Of a stretch of DNA of 64,000 nt, positions 17,297 through 56,429 are shown piece after piece. Both the position numbers and the translations under genes were made by a program. Numbering within the stretch: position 1 is the first letter of the stretch; every line of letters starts with the position of its first letter. The notes below the pieces were generated by a model, which was not told where the DNA came from, ran no database searches, and saw only the letters and a list, made by a program, of their open reading frames with translations. The stretch is from the NCBI RefSeq assembly GCF_055900595.2, contig NZ_CM148325.1, one strand, 5' to 3'.

Positions 17297-17318
17297 AGTG
17301 TTGCCTTTTTGTTATCAA

Positions 17319-17349
17319 TAAAAAAGGCCCCCCGGTTTGGGAGGCCTTA
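17319..17349 (-). terminator. pheA attenuator terminator
   Basis: Minus-strand RNA AAGGCCTCCCAAACCGGGGGGCCTTTTTT between pheL and pheA. Confidence 0.8.
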
Positions 17350-17394
17350 TTGTTCGTCTTCGCATTCTGTTTCACACGACGAAACGCCTCCCAT

Positions 17395-17442
17395 TCAGGG
17401 GAAGGTAAAAAAGAATGCGAAGAAAAACGGTGTGTGTTTCAT
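17395..17442 (-). CDS. pheL: pheA leader peptide PheL (15 aa, Phe-rich)
   Basis: Minus-strand ATG at 17442 encodes [15 protein letters not shown]; not in ORF track because it is under 60 aa. Confidence 0.85.
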   Translation of the reverse strand: [15 protein letters not shown]

Positions 17443-17497
17443 GTTTGTTTCCTTAAGTGACTTCAGTACAGTACCCGTACTGTTTTCACGCTGTCAA

Positions 17498-17941: not shown

Positions 17942-18120
17942 TCAAAATGTGTGATGGAAATCTCATAATTTTGTCACTTTTTGTCAACGAATCTTTTTTG
18001 TGAGAAATCGCAGGAAGAGGTGTTTTTTTACTTGAGGAATATCTCAAAGCGAGCCATATTTGATGAGATCGATAGTGACTAAATCGCTTCAGTTTCACAA
18101 CTAACAGAATAAAAAAACGG

Positions 18121-18133
18121 CAGCTCAAGGCTG
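18121..18133. repeat. Left copy of the direct repeat flanking the IS4 element (putative target-site duplication)
   Basis: cagctcaaggctg here versus cagctcaagggctg at 19655-19668 (one G difference). Confidence 0.6.
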
Positions 18134-18146
18134 TAATGCCAGTCAG

Positions 18147-18858
18147 TTAAGCAACTGACTGGCTCTTTTTCGGGGCTGTGGGGTATTTCCAGGGCCTCTC
18201 CTTTACCACTCTCGGGAAGGCCCTTTCCCTTCTTGTCGGTAATTTCACTGGTTGTCCCATACTTGCAAGATCGCGCATCAGCTCCGGTATACGTCCCGGT
18301 GAAGCGCATGGCGTCCGTCATCGACGTCAGCAGATGGCTGGTCAGTTCCATCTGGCAGACCATTTTGACCTGCGGGTAGAGCGCCGGGTTCTCGGCATGT
18401 GTCTGGCGGGGGAAGGCTGCATCGTTCTCTGGTGTATCCGGTGTGCGCCAGAACACACCATCGATGGCCAGCAGGGTCAGGCCGCACCAGTGCGGATGCA
18501 GCGTGGCGTTATGCCAGAGCTGCGCTGTTTTCGTGAACACGCGTCGGACAGCCTCACTTCCCAGGCGCTGGCGGGCCTGAATAACGGCACTGGGGGCAAC
18601 GAAGGGGCGATTGCCTGGCAGCATGATGTCCAGGCGATTCACAATCTGGTGAAGAGGTTCTTTACGCTCAAGCGCCATGCCAACAATACACCAGACCATC
18701 ATTTCGAGGGGAAGACGGCGCTTGCGTAGCGTTACAGTACCTGATTCGGCAAGGCAACGAGAGATGAGTTCGGGGTCGAGGTAATCCCCCAGAAAAGTCA
18801 GTGGGTTACGCAGAGAATCGTAACGGGATACCAAATCAAGGGCCTGTCCAATGAGCAT
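18147..18858 (-). pseudogene. IS4 transposase (InsG-like) pseudogene: N-terminal ~175 aa intact, then internal deletions and frameshift
   Basis: MLIGQALDLVSRYDSLRNPL...HLLT then jumps to SMTDAMRF and loses frame; 259-aa ORF versus 442 aa for intact IS4 transposase (length recalled from memory). Confidence 0.75.
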
Positions 18859-18894
18859 AAATAAATATCCTCCGGCATAGCCGGAGGTTTTTCA

Positions 18895-19607
18895 AATGCG
18901 CCTGTAAGGCTCTGTTACCAGCCGCGCCCTAACAGGCGCATACGATCTGACATTTGCATTCAACTTCGTTACTTACGGCCCGTAAACGGGCTGCCCGGAT
19001 ATGGAATCGATAACTGCTCCCCCATTTTATCCTCTTCAAGCTGGTGCTTTATGTAGTCCTGTATCTTCGCCGTGTTCTTACCCACCGTATCGACATAGTA
19101 CCCTCGGCACCAGAACTCCCTGTTTCTGTATTTGAATTTCAAATCCCCAAACTGCTCGTAAAGCATCAGACTGCTTTTCCCTTTCAGATATCCCATAAAG
19201 CCGGATACGCTCATTTTGGGTGGGATTTCCACAAGCATATGGATATGATCTGCGCAGCACTCTGCTTCCAGAATCCGTACGCTTTTCCACTCACACAGCT
19301 TTCTCAAAATACTGCCTATCGCCCTACGCTTCTCTCCGTAAAACGCCAGTCTTCGGTATTTCGGCGCAAAAACTATGTGATATTTACAGTTCCAGCGGGT
19401 GTGCGCTAAGCTCTTTTCGTCCCCCATTGGGACCCCCTTTTGATTTCTTGTTTGACACTTGCAGTTGCCAGACCGCAAGGTGTTTTAACAAATCAAAAGG
19501 GGTTTTAATAACTGGCTCAAAGCTGAAAGCTTTCCGGAACCCCCAGCCTAGCTGGGGGTTTTCTGTGCACAAAAAAATCCGGAAACGAGTGAGCGTTTCC
19601 GGATTCT
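18895..19607 (-). mobile_element. IS200-like element (IS200/IS605 family), approx. 0.71 kb, boundaries +/- ~20 bp
   Basis: Contains Y1/HUH transposase tnpA, a terminator-like perfect palindrome near the left end (19577-19603), a 5'-UTR palindrome (19540-19558) and a 10-bp inverted repeat after the stop (18896-18905 / 18932-18941); extent inferred from expected IS4 leader length. Confidence 0.7.
18969..19427 (-). CDS. tnpA: IS200 transposase TnpA (Y1 HUH single-strand transposase)
   Basis: MGDEKSLAHTRWNCKYHIVFAPKYRR...HIHMLVEIPPK... 152 aa; the HxH (HIHML) motif is directly visible; ORF-track start at 19478 is an upstream extension. Confidence 0.9.
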   Translation of the reverse strand: MGDEKSLAHTRWNCKYHIVFAPKYRRLAFYGEKRRAIGSILRKLCEWKSVRILEAECCADHIHMLVEIPPKMSVSGFMGYLKGKSSLMLYEQFGDLKFKYRNREFWCRGYYVDTVGKNTAKIQDYIKHQLEEDKMGEQLSIPYPGSPFTGRK

Positions 19608-22273: not shown

Positions 22274-22334
22274 CCTAAAGAATCAAGACGATCCGGTACG
22301 CGTGATTTTCTTTTCACATTAATCTGGTCAATAA

Positions 22335-22364
22335 CCTTGAATAATTGAGGGATGACCTCATTTA
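22335..22364 (+). promoter_or_regulatory. Sigma-32 promoter of clpB
   Basis: ccttgaa (-35, 22335-22341) and cctcattta (-10, 22356-22364). Confidence 0.75.
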
Positions 22365-22402
22365 ATCTCCAGTAGCAACTTTGATCCGTTATGGGAGGAG
22401 TT

Positions 22403-24976
22403 ATGCGTCTGGATCGTCTTACTAATAAATTCCAGCTTGCTCTTGCCGATGCCCAATCACTTGCACTCGGGCACGACAACCAATTCATCGAACCACTTCA
22501 TTTAATGAGCGCCCTGCTGAATCAGGAAGGGGGTTCGGTTAGTCCTTTATTAACATCCGCCGGCATCAATGCTGGTCAGTTGCGCACAGATATCAATCAG
22601 GCATTAAATCGTTTACCGCAGGTTGAAGGCACTGGCGGCGATGTCCAGCCCTCACAGGATCTGGTGCGCGTTCTTAATCTTTGCGACAAGCTGGCGCAAA
22701 AACGTGGTGATAACTTTATCTCGTCAGAACTGTTCGTTCTGGCGGCACTTGAGTCTCGCGGCACGCTGGCCGACATCCTGAAAGCAGCAGGGGCGACCAC
22801 CGCCAACATTACTCAAGCGATTGAACAAATGCGTGGAGGTGAAAGCGTGAACGATCAAGGAGCTGAAGACCAACGTCAGGCTTTGAAAAAATACACTATC
22901 GACCTCACCGAACGAGCCGAACAAGGCAAACTCGATCCGGTGATTGGCCGTGATGAAGAAATTCGCCGTACCATTCAGGTACTGCAACGTCGTACTAAAA
23001 ATAACCCGGTGCTGATTGGTGAACCAGGCGTTGGTAAAACAGCCATCGTTGAAGGTCTGGCTCAGCGTATTATCAATGGCGAAGTGCCGGAAGGGTTGAA
23101 AGGCCGCCGCGTACTGGCGCTGGATATGGGCGCGCTGGTGGCTGGGGCGAAATATCGCGGTGAGTTTGAAGAGCGTTTAAAAGGCGTGCTTAACGATCTT
23201 GCCAAACAGGAAGGCAACGTCATCCTGTTTATCGACGAATTACATACCATGGTCGGCGCGGGTAAAGCCGATGGCGCAATGGATGCCGGCAACATGCTGA
23301 AACCGGCGCTGGCGCGTGGTGAATTGCACTGCGTAGGTGCCACGACACTGGACGAATATCGCCAGTACATCGAAAAAGATGCTGCGCTGGAACGTCGTTT
23401 CCAGAAAGTGTTTGTTGCCGAGCCAACCGTGGAAGACACCATTGCTATTCTGCGTGGCCTGAAAGAACGTTACGAACTGCACCACCATGTGCAAATTACT
23501 GACCCGGCAATTGTTGCAGCTGCGACATTATCTCATCGCTACATTGCTGACCGTCAGCTGCCGGATAAAGCCATCGACCTGATCGATGAAGCAGCATCCA
23601 GCATTCGTATGCAGATTGACTCAAAACCAGAAGAACTCGACCGACTCGATCGTCGTATCATCCAGCTCAAACTGGAACAACAGGCGTTAATGAAAGAGTC
23701 TGATGAAGCCAGTAAAAAACGCCTGGATATGCTCAACGAAGAACTGAGCGACAAAGAACGTCAGTATTCCGAGTTAGAAGAAGAGTGGAAAGCTGAGAAA
23801 GCGTCGCTTTCTGGTACGCAGACCATTAAAGCGGAACTGGAACAGGCGAAAATCGCCATTGAACAGGCTCGCCGTGTGGGTGATCTGGCGCGGATGTCTG
23901 AACTGCAATATGGCAAAATTCCAGAACTGGAAAAGCAACTGGAAGCCGCAACGCAGCTCGAAGGCAAAACTATGCGTCTCTTGCGTAATAAAGTGACCGA
24001 CGCCGAAATTGCTGAAGTGCTGGCGCGTTGGACGGGGATTCCGGTTTCTCGCATGATGGAAAGCGAGCGCGAAAAACTGCTGCGTATGGAGCAAGAGCTG
24101 CACCATCGCGTTATTGGTCAGAACGAAGCGGTTGATGCGGTATCTAACGCTATTCGTCGTAGCCGTGCGGGGCTTGCTGACCCGAATCGCCCGATTGGTT
24201 CATTCCTGTTCCTCGGCCCAACGGGTGTGGGGAAAACTGAGCTTTGTAAGGCGCTGGCGAACTTTATGTTTGATAGCGACGAGGCGATGGTCCGTATCGA
24301 TATGTCCGAGTTTATGGAGAAACACTCGGTGTCTCGTCTGGTTGGTGCGCCTCCGGGATATGTCGGTTATGAAGAAGGTGGCTACCTGACCGAAGCGGTG
24401 CGTCGTCGTCCGTATTCCGTCATCCTGCTGGATGAAGTGGAAAAAGCGCATCCGGATGTCTTCAACATTCTGTTGCAGGTACTGGATGATGGGCGTCTGA
24501 CTGACGGGCAGGGGAGAACGGTCGACTTCCGTAATACGGTTGTCATTATGACCTCTAACCTCGGTTCCGATTTGATTCAGGAACGCTTCGGTGAACTGGA
24601 TTATGCGCACATGAAAGAGCTGGTACTCGGTGTGGTAAGCCATAACTTCCGTCCGGAATTCATTAACCGTATCGATGAAGTGGTGGTCTTCCATCCGCTG
24701 GGTGAACAGCACATTGCGTCGATTGCGCAGATTCAGTTGAAACGTCTGTACAAACGTCTGGAAGAACGTGGTTATGAAATCCACATTTCTGACGAGGCGC
24801 TGAAACTGCTGAGCGAGAACGGTTACGATCCGGTCTATGGTGCACGTCCTCTGAAACGTGCTATCCAGCAGCAGATCGAAAACCCGCTGGCACAGCAAAT
24901 ACTGTCTGGTGAATTGGTTCCGGGTAAAGTTATTCGCCTGGAAGTTAATGAAGACAGGATTGTCGCCGTCCAGTAA
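22403..24976 (+). CDS. clpB: Chaperone ClpB (Hsp100 disaggregase)
   Basis: [27 protein letters not shown]... 857 aa, two AAA+ modules; ORF-track 22391 start is 4 codons upstream. Confidence 0.96.
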
Positions 24977-25417: not shown

Positions 25418-26959
<1,542 letters not shown>

Positions 26960-27044
26960 CCTTAAAGAACTGTTCTTTGCAGTGCTCACACAGATTGTCT
27001 GATAGAAAGTGAAAAGCAAGGCGTCTTGCGAAGCAGACTGATAC

Positions 27045-27120
27045 GTCCCCTTCGTCTAGAGGCCCAGGACACCGCCCTTTCACGGCGGTAACAGGGGTTC
27101 GAATCCCCTAGGGGACGCCA
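27045..27120 (+). tRNA. gltW: tRNA-Glu (UUC) in the 16S-23S spacer
   Basis: GTCCCCTTCGTCTAGAGGCCCAGGACACCGCCCTTTCACGGCGGTAACAGGGGTTCGAATCCCCTAGGGGACGCCA. Confidence 0.97.
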
Positions 27121-27314
27121 CTTGCTGGTTTGTGAGTGAAAGTCGCCGACCTTAATATCGTTAAAGATGACTTACGAGTCATGTTTAAGATATTTGCTCT
27201 TTAAAAATCTGGATCAAGCTGAAAATTGAAACACTGAACAATGAAAGTTGTTCGTGAGTCTCTCAAATTTTCGCAACACGATGATGAATCGAAAGAAACA
27301 TCTTCGGGTTGTGA

Positions 27315-30219
<2,905 letters not shown>

Positions 30220-30312
30220 ACAACGCCGAAGATGTTTTGGCGGATTGAGAGAAGATTTTCAGCCTGATACAGATTAAATCAGAACGCAGAAGCGGTCTGA
30301 TGAAACAGAATT

Positions 30313-30432
30313 TGCCTGGCGGCCTTAGCGCGGTGGTCCCACCTGACCCCATGCCGAACTCAGAAGTGAAACGCCGTAGCGCCGATGGTAGTGTGGGGTC
30401 TCCCCATGCGAGAGTAGGGAACTGCCAGGCAT
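30313..30432 (+). rRNA. rrfG: 5S ribosomal RNA
   Basis: TGCCTGGCGGC...GGAACTGCCAGGCAT, 120 nt. Confidence 0.97.
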
Positions 30433-42075: not shown

Positions 42076-42272
42076 TGCCGGGCTTAAACCCGGCACCTAA
42101 CTTGTCGACGAAGTGCGTTTTGTTCATGCCGGATGCGGCGTGAACGCCTTATCCGGCCTACAAGATCGTGCAAATTCAATATATTGCATGAGCCATGTAG
42201 GCCTGATAAGCGTAGAGCATCAGGCAGTTTTGCGTTTGCCAGCACTTTTAATTCCGGGCTTAAACCCGGAAT
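42076..42272. repeat. BIME: two inverted REP elements flanked by near-identical ccgggcttaaacccgg palindromes
   Basis: REP gccggatgcggcgtgaacgccttatccggcctac (42128-42161), inverted REP gtaggcctgataagcgtagagcatcaggc (42197-42225), palindromes at 42078-42093 and 42255-42270. Confidence 0.75.
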
Positions 42273-43743: not shown

Positions 43744-46130
<2,387 letters not shown>

Positions 46131-46384
46131 TCATGTTGTGCGATTAAACACCTGCTATTTTAATTTTTGTTACAGAGGCTAAACAGACCGAATCACGGCG
46201 ACGAGAAAACGAGAAGTTACTGGCTGGCGAAGGATTATGTGGTGAAATAAAAAGGCCGTTGGGTTACTCTTCAGGCAGTTAAATGGGCATTTCTACACAG
46301 ATAATGCGATGTTCAGATTCTGTAGACTTATAATGATAGATAATGATCCGTCTACAGCATGACAAACAAAAACAGATGCGTTAC

Positions 46385-46412
46385 GGAACTTTACAAAAAC
46401 GAGACACTCTAA
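46385..46412 (+). promoter_or_regulatory. Sigma-E-dependent promoter (rpoE P2, autoregulated)
   Basis: ggaactt (46385-46391) -N16- tctaa (46408-46412) matches sigma-E consensus GGAACTT / TCnAA. Confidence 0.75.
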
Positions 46413-46494
46413 CCCTTTGCTTGCTCAAATTGCAGCTAATGGAGTGGCGTTTCGATAGCGCGTGGAAATTTGGTTTGGGGAGACTTTACCTCGG

Positions 46495-47070
46495 ATGAGC
46501 GAGCAGTTAACGGACCAGGTCCTGGTTGAACGGGTCCAGAAGGGAGATCAGAAAGCCTTTAACTTACTGGTAGTGCGCTATCAGCATAAAGTGGCGAGTC
46601 TGGTTTCCCGCTATGTGCCGTCGGGTGATGTTCCCGATGTGGTACAAGAAGCTTTTATTAAAGCCTATCGTGCGCTGGATTCGTTCCGGGGAGATAGCGC
46701 TTTTTATACATGGCTGTATCGGATTGCTGTAAATACAGCGAAAAATTACCTGGTTGCTCAGGGACGCCGTCCACCTTCCAGTGATGTGGATGCCATTGAA
46801 GCTGAAAACTTCGAAAGTGGCGGCGCGTTGAAAGAAATTTCGAACCCTGAGAACTTAATGTTGTCAGAAGAACTGAGACAGATAGTTTTCCGAACTATTG
46901 AGTCCCTCCCGGAAGATTTACGCATGGCAATAACCTTGCGGGAGCTGGATGGCCTGAGCTATGAAGAGATAGCCGCTATCATGGATTGTCCGGTAGGTAC
47001 GGTGCGTTCACGTATCTTCCGAGCGAGGGAAGCTATTGATAACAAAGTTCAACCGCTTATCAGGCGTTGA
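46495..47070 (+). CDS. rpoE: RNA polymerase sigma-E factor (ECF, sigma-24)
   Basis: MSEQLTDQVLVERVQKGDQKAFNLLVVRYQHKV... 191 aa. Confidence 0.96.
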   Translation: MSEQLTDQVLVERVQKGDQKAFNLLVVRYQHKVASLVSRYVPSGDVPDVVQEAFIKAYRALDSFRGDSAFYTWLYRIAVNTAKNYLVAQGRRPPSSDVDAIEAENFESGGALKEISNPENLMLSEELRQIVFRTIESLPEDLRMAITLRELDGLSYEEIAAIMDCPVGTVRSRIFRAREAIDNKVQPLIRR

Positions 47071-47102
47071 CGATAGCGGGATACTGGATAAGGGTATTAG
47101 GC

Positions 47103-47753
47103 ATGCAGAAAGAACAACTTTCCGCTTTAATGGATGGCGAAACGCTGGATAGTGAGCTGCTTAACGAACTGGCTCATAACCCAGAAATGCAGAAAACCTG
47201 GGAAAGCTATCACTTAATCCGTGACTCAATGCGGGGTGATACTCCCGAGGTGCTCCATTTCGATATCTCTTCACGCGTAATGGCCGCCATTGAAGAAGAG
47301 CCAGTACGTCAACCGGCGACACTGATCCCAGAGGCCCAGCCTGCGCCGCATCAATGGCAGAAAATGCCATTCTGGCAGAAAGTACGTCCATGGGCAGCAC
47401 AGCTTACCCAAATGGGCGTAGCAGCATGCGTATCGCTTGCAGTTATCGTTGGCGTCCAGCACTATAATGGGCAATCTGAAACGTCCCAGCAGCCCGAAAC
47501 GCCAGTATTTAATACACTGCCGATGATGGGTAAAGCCAGCCCGGTTAGCCTGGGAGTACCTTCTGAAGCGACTGCAAATAATGGTCAACAGCAGCAGGTA
47601 CAGGAGCAGCGTCGTCGCATTAATGCAATGTTGCAGGATTACGAACTGCAACGTCGACTCCACTCTGAACAGCTTCAGTTTGAGCAGGCCCAAACACAGC
47701 AAGCCGCTGTACAGGTGCCAGGAATTCAAACTTTAGGAACGCAATCGCAGTAA
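47103..47753 (+). CDS. rseA: Anti-sigma-E factor RseA
   Basis: MQKEQLSALMDGETLDSELL... 216 aa with single transmembrane segment. Confidence 0.95.
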   Translation: MQKEQLSALMDGETLDSELLNELAHNPEMQKTWESYHLIRDSMRGDTPEVLHFDISSRVMAAIEEEPVRQPATLIPEAQPAPHQWQKMPFWQKVRPWAAQLTQMGVAACVSLAVIVGVQHYNGQSETSQQPETPVFNTLPMMGKASPVSLGVPSEATANNGQQQQVQEQRRRINAMLQDYELQRRLHSEQLQFEQAQTQQAAVQVPGIQTLGTQSQ

Positions 47754-48709
47754 TGAAGCAACTTTGGTTTGCCATGTCATTAGTGACAGGTAGCCTGTTA
47801 TTCTCTGCTAACGCCTCGGCCACTCCCGCGTCCGGGGCGTTATTACAGCAGATGAACCTGGCCAGTCAGTCACTGAATTACGAGCTGTCATTCATCAGCA
47901 TCAATAAACAGGGTGTTGAGTCTCTGCGTTATCGACATGCACGCCTCGATAACCGTCCTCTTGCACAATTGTTGCAAATGGATGGCCCGCGCCGGGAAGT
48001 GGTACAGCGCGGCAATGAAATCAGCTACTTTGAACCGGGCCTTGAACCGTTCACGCTTAATGGCGATTACATTGTTGATTCTCTGCCATCGCTCATCTAT
48101 ACCGATTTCAAACGCCTTTCTCCTTACTACGACTTTATCTCCGTGGGACGCACGCGTATTGCTGATCGTCTTTGCGAAGTCATTCGCGTGGTGGCCCGTG
48201 ATGGCACACGCTACAGCTACATCGTGTGGATGGACACCGAATCGAAATTACCGATGCGGGTTGATCTCCTTGATCGCGATGGTGAAACGCTGGAACAATT
48301 TCGCGTGATTGCTTTTAACGTTAATCAGGATATCAGCAGCAGTATGCAGACGCTGGCGAAAGCAAATCTGCCGCCGCTGCTTTCTGTTCCTGTAGGTGAA
48401 AAAGCTAAATTCAGCTGGACGCCAACCTGGTTGCCACAGGGGTTTAGTGAAGTTTCCAGCAGCCGACGTCCGTTACCGACGATGGACAACATGCCTATCG
48501 AATCACGTCTCTATTCCGACGGATTATTCAGCTTCTCGGTAAACGTTAACCGCGCTACGCCATCGAGCACCGATCAGATGTTGCGCACCGGACGCAGAAC
48601 CGTCAGTACAAGCGTACGTGATAACGCCGAAATCACCATTGTCGGCGAACTGCCGCCGCAAACGGCGAAACGCATTGCCGAGAATATTAAGTTCGGGGCA
48701 GCGCAATGA
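47753..48709 (+). CDS. rseB: Sigma-E regulatory protein RseB
   Basis: 318 aa with signal peptide. Confidence 0.95.
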   Translation: MKQLWFAMSLVTGSLLFSANASATPASGALLQQMNLASQSLNYELSFISINKQGVESLRYRHARLDNRPLAQLLQMDGPRREVVQRGNEISYFEPGLEPFTLNGDYIVDSLPSLIYTDFKRLSPYYDFISVGRTRIADRLCEVIRVVARDGTRYSYIVWMDTESKLPMRVDLLDRDGETLEQFRVIAFNVNQDISSSMQTLAKANLPPLLSVPVGEKAKFSWTPTWLPQGFSEVSSSRRPLPTMDNMPIESRLYSDGLFSFSVNVNRATPSSTDQMLRTGRRTVSTSVRDNAEITIVGELPPQTAKRIAENIKFGAAQ

Positions 48710-49185
48710 TCAAAGAGTGGGCTACGGTCGTCTCCTGGCAAAACGGGCAGGCGCTGGTCAGTTGTGATGTTAAAGCCTCATGCAGCAGCTGTGCTTCCCG
48801 TGTCGGTTGCGGTAGCCGCGTGCTGAATAAACTTGGCCCACAAACCACGCATACCATTGTCGTACCCTGTGATGAACCGTTAGTACCGGGGCAAAAAGTG
48901 GAATTAGGAATCACCGAAGGCAGCCTGCTTAGCTCCGCATTACTGGTTTATATGTCGCCGTTGGTGGGATTATTCCTCATCGCTTCGTTATTTCAGCTAC
49001 TCTTTGCTTCAGATCTTGCAGCATTATGCGGTGCGATTCTCGGCGGCGTTGGTGGATTCCTGATTGCACGCAGCTACTCGCGAAAGTTTGCTGCCCGGGC
49101 AGAATGGCAACCGATCATCTTAAGCGTGGCATTGCCGCCAGGCCTTGTGCGATTTGAAACATCTTCGGAAGACGCGAGCCAGTGA
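48706..49185 (+). CDS. rseC: Sigma-E regulatory protein RseC
   Basis: 159 aa membrane protein; overlaps rseB stop by 4 nt. Confidence 0.93.
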   Translation: MIKEWATVVSWQNGQALVSCDVKASCSSCASRVGCGSRVLNKLGPQTTHTIVVPCDEPLVPGQKVELGITEGSLLSSALLVYMSPLVGLFLIASLFQLLFASDLAALCGAILGGVGGFLIARSYSRKFAARAEWQPIILSVALPPGLVRFETSSEDASQ

Positions 49186-49382
49186 TTTCACTGGCTTTGT
49201 TGCATTTTGCATAACAAATGCGAGGACGTTTCCAGATACCACAATCCATACCGTATGAACATTTCCTCGCCTCAATGTTGTAGTGTAGAATGCGGCGTTT
49301 CTATTAATACAGACGTTAAGCTCAGAACAGCGACTTCTAAAAGCCTGGTTAACCGGGCATTAAGGCACAATAATCATACTTT

Positions 49383-51182
<1,800 letters not shown>

Positions 51183-52172: not shown

Positions 52173-52318
52173 TAGCTTATCTTCGTTCACGTTGTCGCCG
52201 TTATGGCGACAACGTGAATTATTTATGAGATAAATCCCCCGTGGCTAACGACATCCCCCGTCGTTGTGTATAGAATATTCCCCCGAAGTTTAAGGTTGGC
52301 ACCTCCAGGTTGCCACGG

Positions 52319-52410
52319 CACACGAAACAGCGTTGGTCCCCATATACCGGTAAACTGAAACTGCAGCGAAGCAGTTAGCAGAGCCATGTATATCAGGTCT
52401 GTTTCGTGTG
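52319..52410 (+). promoter_or_regulatory. rnc leader long stem (RNase III autoregulatory processing structure)
   Basis: 12-bp perfect inverted repeat cacacgaaacag (52319-52330) / ctgtttcgtgtg (52399-52410) in the 5' UTR of rnc. Confidence 0.65.
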
Positions 52411-52414
52411 CTGA

Positions 52415-54027
<1,613 letters not shown>

Positions 54028-56029: not shown

Positions 56030-56072
56030 AAAAGTAAAACCCCCGAACTGGTAAGGAACGGGGGTTTTACTT
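56030..56072. terminator. Terminator hairpin downstream of acpS
   Basis: aaaacccccgaactggtaaggaacgggggtttt flanked by A/T runs. Confidence 0.7.
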
Positions 56073-56429
56073 TACAACTTTAATTTTGTGCAGCACACGA
56101 TTCCAACAAAAATGATTATGGATCAATTTAGTTATCCTGTACAAGCAACTTGCAATCTTTAGCATAAAAACTCGAGCCTTTACGAAGAAATCGATATTGA
56201 TGAAAAGATTAACGTGACCGCTTTTTGATAAGTACATTAGAATCGGCGTCGTTATTGGATATTTTGCTGTGTTCTACGCCATGCCACTGAATTCCCCCAT
56301 TGAAACGAGTGGTGTCGTCAAAGCTCTGGTGTGGAGTGCGGCACTCGATTCCAATAACTCGCACGTTCAGTTTTGGGGAGATGTAAGGGCTAATCTGAAC
56401 GGCTGCATTCCTTGTTTAAGGAAAAACGA

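What the first reader, a model, noticed from the sequence alone, without database searches (positions are those of the whole stretch)
46385..46412. Sigma-E promoter upstream of rpoE (autoregulation)
GGAACTT-N16-TCTAA fits the sigma-E consensus and lies ~85 bp upstream of the rpoE start, consistent with the autoregulated promoter of the rpoE-rseABC operon.
Basis: partly seen in the sequence, partly recalled or inferred. Interest (0 to 1): 0.2.

Follow-up and report, generated by a model that had tools for sequence, protein, structure and literature searches.

The report
Known sigma-E autoregulatory promoter of rpoE
This is the well-known promoter through which the E. coli envelope-stress sigma factor sigma-E switches on its own gene; the motif is really there and matches the K-12 reference sequence exactly, so it is ordinary.

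Summary
GGAACTT (46385-46391), a 16-nt spacer and TCTAA (46408-46412) lie on the + strand, with 82 nt between the -10 element and the rpoE ATG (46495). The 12 specified bases occur once in the 64-kb window and in none of 100 shuffles.

The window is E. coli chromosome (smpB to purL). The rpoE-proximal part of the spacer, about 230 bp from roughly 46262 up to the ATG, is identical to K-12 MG1655. A 76-bp piece around the promoter falls in the >=99% identity band in 5251 of 5425 complete E. coli genomes.

The downstream genes are rpoE, rseA, rseB and rseC. The published sigma-E consensus is GGAACTT, a 16-nt spacer, TCAAA, then a purine start 5-6 nt on. That predicts +1 at G46419 and a 76-nt leader.

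Published work on K-12 describes this most proximal rpoE promoter (rpoEp2, renamed P6) as sigma-E dependent. The K-12 evidence includes a sigma-E-responsive start site and a holoenzyme binding peak about 100 nt upstream of the ATG.

In 106 rpoE/algU loci from other Proteobacteria, 80 carry GAACTT-N16-TC upstream on the sense strand and none on the antisense strand.

Verdict: already known, low interest.

The parts
46365..46379 (+). A-rich tract (ACAAACAAAAACAGA) at about -54 to -40 relative to the predicted start; possible UP-like element
   Evidence: Sequence. Rhodius 2006 reports A/T-rich sequence upstream of the sigma-E -35 element. AAAAACA is kept in most Enterobacteriaceae in the alignment. 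The function is inferred.
46385..46391 (+). -35 element GGAACTT (7 of 7 to the sigma-E consensus)
   Evidence: GAACTT is invariant in 13 Enterobacterales and present in 80 of 106 rpoE/algU loci.
46392..46407 (+). 16-nt spacer
   Evidence: 16 nt is the strongly preferred spacer length. The spacer sequence varies between species while its length stays fixed.
46408..46412 (+). -10 element TCTAA (consensus TCAAA)
   Evidence: In the 13 Enterobacterales the -10 pentamer is always T-C/T-N-A-A and is TCNAA in 12 of them.
46419..46419 (+). Predicted transcription start (G, 6-nt discriminator CCCTTT); 46418-46420 is the plausible range
   Evidence: Inferred from the published 5/6-nt discriminator and purine preference. 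GCTTGCT beginning here is nearly invariant in Enterobacterales. Not measured here.
46419..46494 (+). Predicted 76-nt rpoE leader, including the conserved GGGGAGAC...CCTCGG Shine-Dalgarno region
   Evidence: CsrA binding sites in the rpoE leader are reported in the literature.
46343..46498 (+). rseD, the 51-aa rpoE leader peptide ORF; its stop overlaps the rpoE ATG and it contains the sigma-E promoter
   Evidence: ORF list, RefSeq annotation, NF033697 leader_RseD at 104 bits.
46495..47070 (+). rpoE (sigma-E, 191 aa)
46841..46868 (+). Candidate second sigma-E promoter (rseA P3) inside the rpoE coding region: cGAACcc-N16-TCAGA, predicted start G46875
   Evidence: Sequence. The predicted start is exactly 228 nt before the rseA ATG (47103), matching the 228-nt UTR reported in PMC8595263. 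Rhodius 2006 reports a conserved sigma-E promoter upstream of rseA.
47103..49185 (+). rseA (47103-47753), rseB (47753-48709) and rseC (48706-49185), co-transcribed with rpoE

Best explanation
This is the sigma-E-dependent autoregulatory promoter of the rpoE-rseABC operon of E. coli, called rpoEp2 or rpoEP2 in older work and P6 in the Klein/Raina numbering. When envelope stress leads to degradation of the anti-sigma factor RseA, free sigma-E joins core RNA polymerase. Sigma-E region 4 reads GGAACTT at -35 and region 2 reads and melts TCTAA at -10. Transcription should start at about G46419 and run through rpoE, rseA, rseB and rseC. This gives positive feedback on sigma-E and, through RseA and RseB, a built-in negative loop. 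Shown here: the motif, its uniqueness in the window, its identity to K-12, the identity of the downstream genes, and cross-species conservation of both elements and their spacing. Taken from the literature on K-12: sigma-E dependence, start-site evidence and holoenzyme binding.
For: The exact motif is unique in the window, with 0 of 100 shuffles matching. The gene downstream is RpoE, followed by RseA. The rpoE-proximal part of the spacer is identical to MG1655. The 76-bp core falls in the >=99% identity band in 5251 of 5425 E. coli genomes. The published consensus is GGAACTT, a preferred 16-nt spacer, TCAAA, a 5/6-nt discriminator and a purine +1; the same paper states that the operon has a highly conserved sigma-E promoter upstream, so that sigma-E autoregulates (PMC1312014). 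The most proximal promoter, P6 (formerly rpoEP2), is recognised by sigma-E holoenzyme (PMC6358824 and PMC8745692). tagRNA-seq assigned PrpoEp2a as a start site that responds to sigma-E induction (PMC7075262). The genomic-SELEX peak for RpoE holoenzyme lies at 2,708,134 in the rpoE/nadB spacer, which is 100 nt upstream of the ATG, or about window position 46395 (PMC5493296; coordinate conversion is mine). In 13 Enterobacterales GAACTT and the 16-nt spacing are invariant, the -10 is TCNAA in 12 of 13 (TTAAA in one), the spacer sequence varies, and the -10 lies 76-86 nt from the ATG. GAACTT-N16-TC occurs upstream on the sense strand in 80 of 106 rpoE/algU loci, 0 of 106 on the antisense strand and 1 of 97 in a control region. 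PDB entries exist for this exact sigma factor or its domains: 6JBQ, 2H27, 4LUP and 1OR7.
Against: No transcript data exist for this strain, so the start site is predicted rather than measured. The primary papers with the mapped start (Rouviere 1995, Raina 1995, Klein 2016, Yakhnin 2017) are not in the held library. Table 1 of Rhodius 2006 is not held as text, so I could not read the published +1 coordinate. The -10 element differs from the consensus TCAAA at one position. Consensus-level scoring alone does not separate real from chance sites in this window.
Confidence: 0.97

Rival explanations
1. The conserved blocks are kept for another reason, either because they encode part of the RseD leader peptide or because they act as RNA elements (for example a GGA CsrA site) in longer transcripts from upstream promoters. 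On this view they are not a promoter.
For: The motif lies inside the annotated rseD ORF. CsrA is reported to bind the rpoE leader. The -35 element contains a GGA.
Against: The rseD frame is not maintained outside Escherichia and Citrobacter: Superficieibacter and Enterobacter sp. Bisph1 have no ATG, and Pantoea has only 36 nt of open frame. GAACTT-N16-TC persists in all of them. The conservation pattern is two short blocks at a fixed distance with a free spacer, not a codon-like pattern. The same bipartite motif is found upstream of rpoE/algU in distant genera that lack rseD. Holoenzyme binding and a sigma-E-responsive start site are published for K-12.
Confidence: 0.02
2. It is a chance match to a short consensus with no function.
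For: Sigma-E-like matches at relaxed stringency are as common as in shuffled sequence.
Against: The exact 12-base match is unique, with 0 of 100 shuffles matching. It lies in the correct orientation in the 382-bp spacer just upstream of the sigma factor that reads it. It is conserved across the order.
Confidence: 0.005
3. The site is used mainly by another sigma factor (sigma-70, sigma-S or FecI) rather than sigma-E.
For: The rpoE upstream region is reported to hold six promoters read by RpoD, RpoS, RpoN and RpoE.
Against: A sigma-70 consensus scan of 45900-47200 found no site. The hexamers here do not resemble TTGACA/TATAAT. The literature assigns the other promoters to positions further upstream and the most proximal one to sigma-E.
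Confidence: 0.005

Closest known systems
E. coli K-12 rpoE sigma-E-dependent promoter (rpoEp2 / rpoEp2a / rpoEP2, renamed P6)
   Same: The rpoE-proximal part of the spacer is identical in sequence, the downstream operon is the same, and so are the position and orientation.
   Different: Nothing differs in the promoter itself. The nadB-proximal part of the spacer (46143-46245) is a rare allele, about 87% identical to K-12 there. This could affect the distal promoters but not this one.
Pseudomonas algU (algT) autoregulated promoter
   Same: It has the same architecture upstream of the orthologous sigma gene: AGAACTT-N16-TCTAT, 59 nt from the start codon in every Pseudomonas/Stutzerimonas locus where the scan picked the proximal site. 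The autoregulatory logic is my knowledge of the algU literature.
   Different: The first base of the -35 and the last base of the -10 differ, the leader is shorter, and the downstream anti-sigma genes are muc rather than rse.
Other sigma-E regulon promoters in the same window (rseA P3, bamD, bamE)
   Same: They share the GAAC/AAAC core, 16-nt spacer and TC..A -10 architecture: 46841-46868 (+), 20649-20622 (-) and 1696-1669 (-). PrseAp3, PbamDp2 and PbamE are listed as sigma-E start sites in K-12.
   Different: They match the consensus less well (8 to 11 of 12 by my score, against 12 of 12 here) and serve outer-membrane assembly or the negative feedback arm rather than autoregulation.

Membership tests
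Sigma-E (RpoE) dependent promoter, as defined by Rhodius et al. 2006 | -35 element GGAACTT | tested here: met
   7 of 7 at 46385-46391.
Sigma-E (RpoE) dependent promoter, as defined by Rhodius et al. 2006 | Spacer of 15-19 nt between the -35 and -10 elements, with 16 nt strongly preferred | tested here: met
   16 nt. The same length is seen in nearly all orthologous loci.
Sigma-E (RpoE) dependent promoter, as defined by Rhodius et al. 2006 | -10 element TCAAA-like | tested here: met
   TCTAA, 4 of 5 to the consensus. The same pentamer is found in E. albertii, Citrobacter, Superficieibacter and two Enterobacter loci (E. cloacae and Enterobacter sp. Bisph1).
Sigma-E (RpoE) dependent promoter, as defined by Rhodius et al. 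2006 | Purine start site 5-6 nt downstream of the -10 element | tested here: inconclusive
   A G lies 6 nt downstream (46419), which is compatible. The start itself was not measured here. K-12 tagRNA-seq reports PrpoEp2a as a start site, but the coordinate is not readable in the held text.
Sigma-E (RpoE) dependent promoter, as defined by Rhodius et al. 2006 | Transcription depends on sigma-E in vivo and in vitro | not testable with these tools
   Literature for the identical K-12 sequence.
Sigma-E (RpoE) dependent promoter, as defined by Rhodius et al. 2006 | Conserved upstream of orthologous genes in related genomes | tested here: met
   All 13 Enterobacterales carry the motif at 76-86 nt from the ATG. 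80 of 106 loci carry it on the sense strand and 0 of 106 on the antisense strand.
E. coli rpoE P6 (rpoEp2) specifically | Most proximal promoter in the nadB-rpoE spacer, sequence as in K-12 | tested here: met
   Identical to MG1655 over the rpoE-proximal part of the spacer. Described as the most proximal promoter in PMC8745692.
ECF autoregulation module (sigma gene followed by its anti-sigma gene, with a self-recognised promoter) | The sigma gene is immediately followed by its cognate anti-sigma gene in one transcription unit | tested here: met
   rpoE 46495-47070 and rseA 47103-47753 on the same strand, with a 32-nt gap.

The most novel reading that the evidence does not exclude
The predicted sigma-E start (G46419) lies 76 nt downstream of the rseD start codon (46343). 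Transcripts from the autoregulatory promoter therefore cannot encode full-length RseD; at most they encode a 19-aa remnant from the in-frame ATG at 46439. The reported translational coupling of rpoE to rseD would then apply only to mRNAs from the upstream sigma-70, sigma-S and sigma-54 promoters. Stress-induced sigma-E-driven mRNAs would be translated in a different, uncoupled mode, so promoter choice would set translation efficiency as well as transcript level. This may already be discussed in Yakhnin et al. 2017, which I could not read.
Probability: 0.25. Interest if true: 0.3.

Novelty: already known. Interest (0 to 1): 0.05.

Why it matters
It matters only as annotation. It marks the positive-feedback point of the envelope stress response in this strain and shows the promoter is intact and identical to the reference. 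No open question is advanced.

Tried and rejected
A generic sigma-70 promoter scan of 45900-47200 found nothing, so no competing sigma-70 consensus site overlaps the motif.

Relaxed sigma-E matching was no better than shuffled sequence: 2 mismatches, and a 10-of-12 score. I therefore did not use it as evidence. It also under-scores the candidate bamE and rseA P3 sites in this window (9 and 8 of 12).

I tested whether conservation of the motif could be due to rseD coding. I rejected this because the ORF is not kept outside Escherichia and Citrobacter while the motif is.

Rfam found no described RNA family in the nadB-rpoE spacer.

The primary papers Klein 2016 (PMC5087721), Yakhnin 2017 (PMC5686586) and Thomason 2015 (PMC4288677) are not held. 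No supplementary files are held for Rhodius 2006 or Lacoux 2020, and their main-text Tables 1 and 2 are not held as text. The published +1 coordinate could therefore not be read directly. A full-text search for the promoter sequence string found no paper.

Full report
**Observation.** On the + strand, GGAACTT occupies 46385-46391. It is followed by the 16-nt spacer TACAAAAACGAGACAC (46392-46407) and TCTAA (46408-46412). This is the only exact match to GGAACTT-N16-TCTAA on either strand of the 64-kb window, and none of 100 dinucleotide-preserving shuffles produced one. Relaxed matching is uninformative: 4 hits against 3.9 expected at 2 mismatches, and 5 against about 9 in shuffles at a 10-of-12 score. 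The evidence therefore rests on the perfect match in the right place, not on a consensus scan.

**Context.** The window is E. coli chromosome, running from smpB to purL, and is essentially collinear with strain Z0117EC0005. Upstream and divergent is nadB, whose annotated start codon is at 46088 on the - strand. Downstream on the + strand are:
- rseD, 46343-46498 (51 aa; NF033697, 104 bits)
- rpoE, 46495-47070 (TIGR02939 equivalog, 328.7 bits against a cut-off of 236)
- rseA, 47103-47753 (NF008116, 425.7 bits)
- rseB and rseC, then lepA

The spacer from about 46262 to the rpoE ATG is base-for-base identical to K-12 MG1655. A 76-bp piece centred on the promoter (46365-46440) is present once per genome in 5425 of 5426 complete E. 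coli genomes. It falls in the >=99% identity band in 5251 of them.

**Fit to the defined sigma-E promoter.** Rhodius et al. 2006 (PMC1312014) derived the motif from 28 start sites mapped by 5' RACE. It comprises a -35 element GGAACTT(TT), a -10 element (T/C GG)TCAAA(A), a spacer of 15-19 nt with 16 strongly preferred, a 5/6-nt discriminator, a purine +1 and A/T-rich sequence upstream. The site here has 7 of 7 at -35, the preferred 16-nt spacer and 4 of 5 at -10. A G lies 6 nt after the -10 element (46419), and an A-rich tract lies at 46365-46379. The predicted transcript therefore starts at about 46419 with a 76-nt leader. This start is inferred, not measured.

**Published evidence for the identical K-12 sequence.**
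- Klein and Raina's reviews say rpoE is transcribed from six promoters. The autoregulated one, formerly rpoEP2 and now P6, is the most proximal and is recognised by sigma-E holoenzyme.
- tagRNA-seq after controlled sigma-E induction assigned PrpoEp2a (and PrseAp3) as start sites whose initiation frequency rose (PMC7075262).
- Genomic SELEX with RpoE holoenzyme alone gave a peak at 2,708,134 in the rpoE/nadB spacer (PMC5493296). Using the MG1655 v3 coordinates and the v2-to-v3 offset of 1978 at this position (my knowledge), that peak is 100 nt upstream of the ATG. This corresponds to about window position 46395, inside the proposed promoter.
- An rpoEP2-lacZ fusion is used as a sigma-E activity reporter.

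**Independent comparative test.** I fetched 120 loci from genome contigs with a degenerate pattern taken from the rpoE coding region (peptide GDSAFYTWLYRIA). This choice does not bias towards the promoter.
- In 106 loci with a credible start codon and 250 nt of upstream sequence, the best sigma-E score on the sense strand was at least 10 of 12 in 78. The antisense strand and a downstream control region never reached 10.
- The strict pattern GAACTT-N16-TC was present upstream on the sense strand in 80 of 106 loci, on the antisense strand in 0 of 106, and in 1 of 97 control regions.
- In 13 Enterobacterales (Escherichia, Citrobacter, Superficieibacter, Enterobacter, Klebsiella, Rahnella, Pantoea, Moellerella, Photorhabdus), GAACTT and the 16-nt spacing are invariant. 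The -10 pentamer is TCNAA in 12 of the 13 and TTAAA in Photorhabdus caribbeanensis. The spacer sequence is free to vary, and the -10 element ends 76-86 nt from the ATG. A GCTTGCT block starting at the predicted +1 is also nearly invariant.
- Pseudomonas and Stutzerimonas loci carry AGAACTT-N16-TCTAT 59 nt from algU.

This is a textbook phylogenetic footprint of a bipartite promoter. The loci are not phylogenetically independent (there are many Pseudomonas), but the motif recurs across many genera.

**Mechanism.** Free sigma-E, released when RseA is degraded, binds core polymerase. It reads the -35 and -10 elements and transcribes rpoE-rseABC. This raises sigma-E (positive loop) and RseA/RseB (negative loop). 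The window's RpoE matches the PDB chains of the sigma-E/RseA complex (1OR7), the sigma-E initiation complex (6JBQ), region 4 (2H27) and region 2 (2MAO/4LUP). That region 4 contacts GGAACTT and region 2 captures the flipped-out -10 bases is from my own knowledge.

The promoter lies inside rseD, the annotated rpoE leader-peptide ORF whose stop overlaps the rpoE ATG. The predicted +1 is 76 nt downstream of the rseD ATG, so sigma-E-driven mRNA cannot encode full RseD. London et al. 2021 note that the operon's promoters lie upstream of or within rseD. The rseD frame is not preserved beyond Escherichia and Citrobacter, whereas the promoter is. This rules out coding constraint as the reason for conservation of the motif.

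**Rivals.** Three alternatives were considered, and each has a probability of about 2% or less:
- A chance match.
- Conservation for a reason other than promoter function, such as RseD coding or an RNA element.
- Use by another sigma factor; a sigma-70 scan of the region found no site.

**Verdict.** The finding is real, correctly interpreted and already known. Novelty is 'already known' and interest is about 0.05. The only mildly open point is whether transcripts from this promoter escape rseD-dependent translational coupling.

Noticed in passing
window 46343-46498 (+): The annotated rpoE leader peptide ORF rseD contains the sigma-E promoter. The predicted sigma-E start (46419) is downstream of the rseD ATG, so sigma-E-driven mRNA lacks the rseD start. 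The rseD frame is not conserved outside Escherichia and Citrobacter, although the last codons, which overlap the rpoE Shine-Dalgarno region, are.
   Followed up: partly
window 46841-46875 (+), inside rpoE: Candidate rseA P3 sigma-E promoter: cGAACcc-N16-TCAGA with predicted start G46875. This is exactly 228 nt before the rseA ATG (47103), matching the UTR length reported for K-12.
   Followed up: partly
window 20649-20622 (-): GGAACAT-N16-TCTAA, one mismatch from the query motif, lies about 186 nt upstream of the bamD ATG (20430, - strand). It sits inside the first ~28 codons of the divergent rluD gene (ATG 20565, + strand). It is probably the sigma-E promoter bamDp2.
   Followed up: partly
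window 1696-1669 (-): TAAACTT-N16-TCAGA lies just after the recN stop and about 117 nt upstream of the bamE ATG (1545, - strand). It is probably the sigma-E promoter of bamE, which was the strongest responder in published tagRNA-seq.
   Followed up: partly
window 46143-46245: The nadB-proximal third of the nadB-rpoE spacer is hypervariable within E. coli, while the rpoE-proximal ~230 bp are invariant. The window's allele is >=95% identical in only 18 of 5426 complete genomes. It is 90-95% identical in 524, 80-90% identical in 7, and too divergent for megablast in the rest (about 87% identical to MG1655). This could affect nadB or the distal rpoE promoters.
   Followed up: partly
window 48670-49501 (-): Rfam AsrC (antisense RNA of rseC mRNA), 502 bits, full length, spanning the rseC end and the lepA start on the opposite strand.
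   Followed up: no
window 18100-19560: By collinearity with strain Z0117EC0005, an IS200/IS605 tnpA and a frameshifted IS4-family transposase lie between bamD and raiA. An Rfam STnc490 hit (19437-19560, - strand) lies next to the IS200 end. This insertion is not in the K-12 gene order as I recall it.
   Followed up: no
window 52285-52499 (+), 56031-56107 (-), 22284-22422 (+), 42162-42204 (+), 17318-17443 (-), 25418-30430 (+): Other Rfam hits: the rncO leader, the ohsC antitoxin RNA (with shoB), RyfD, ES036, the Phe leader and a complete rrn operon with tRNA-Glu.
   Followed up: no
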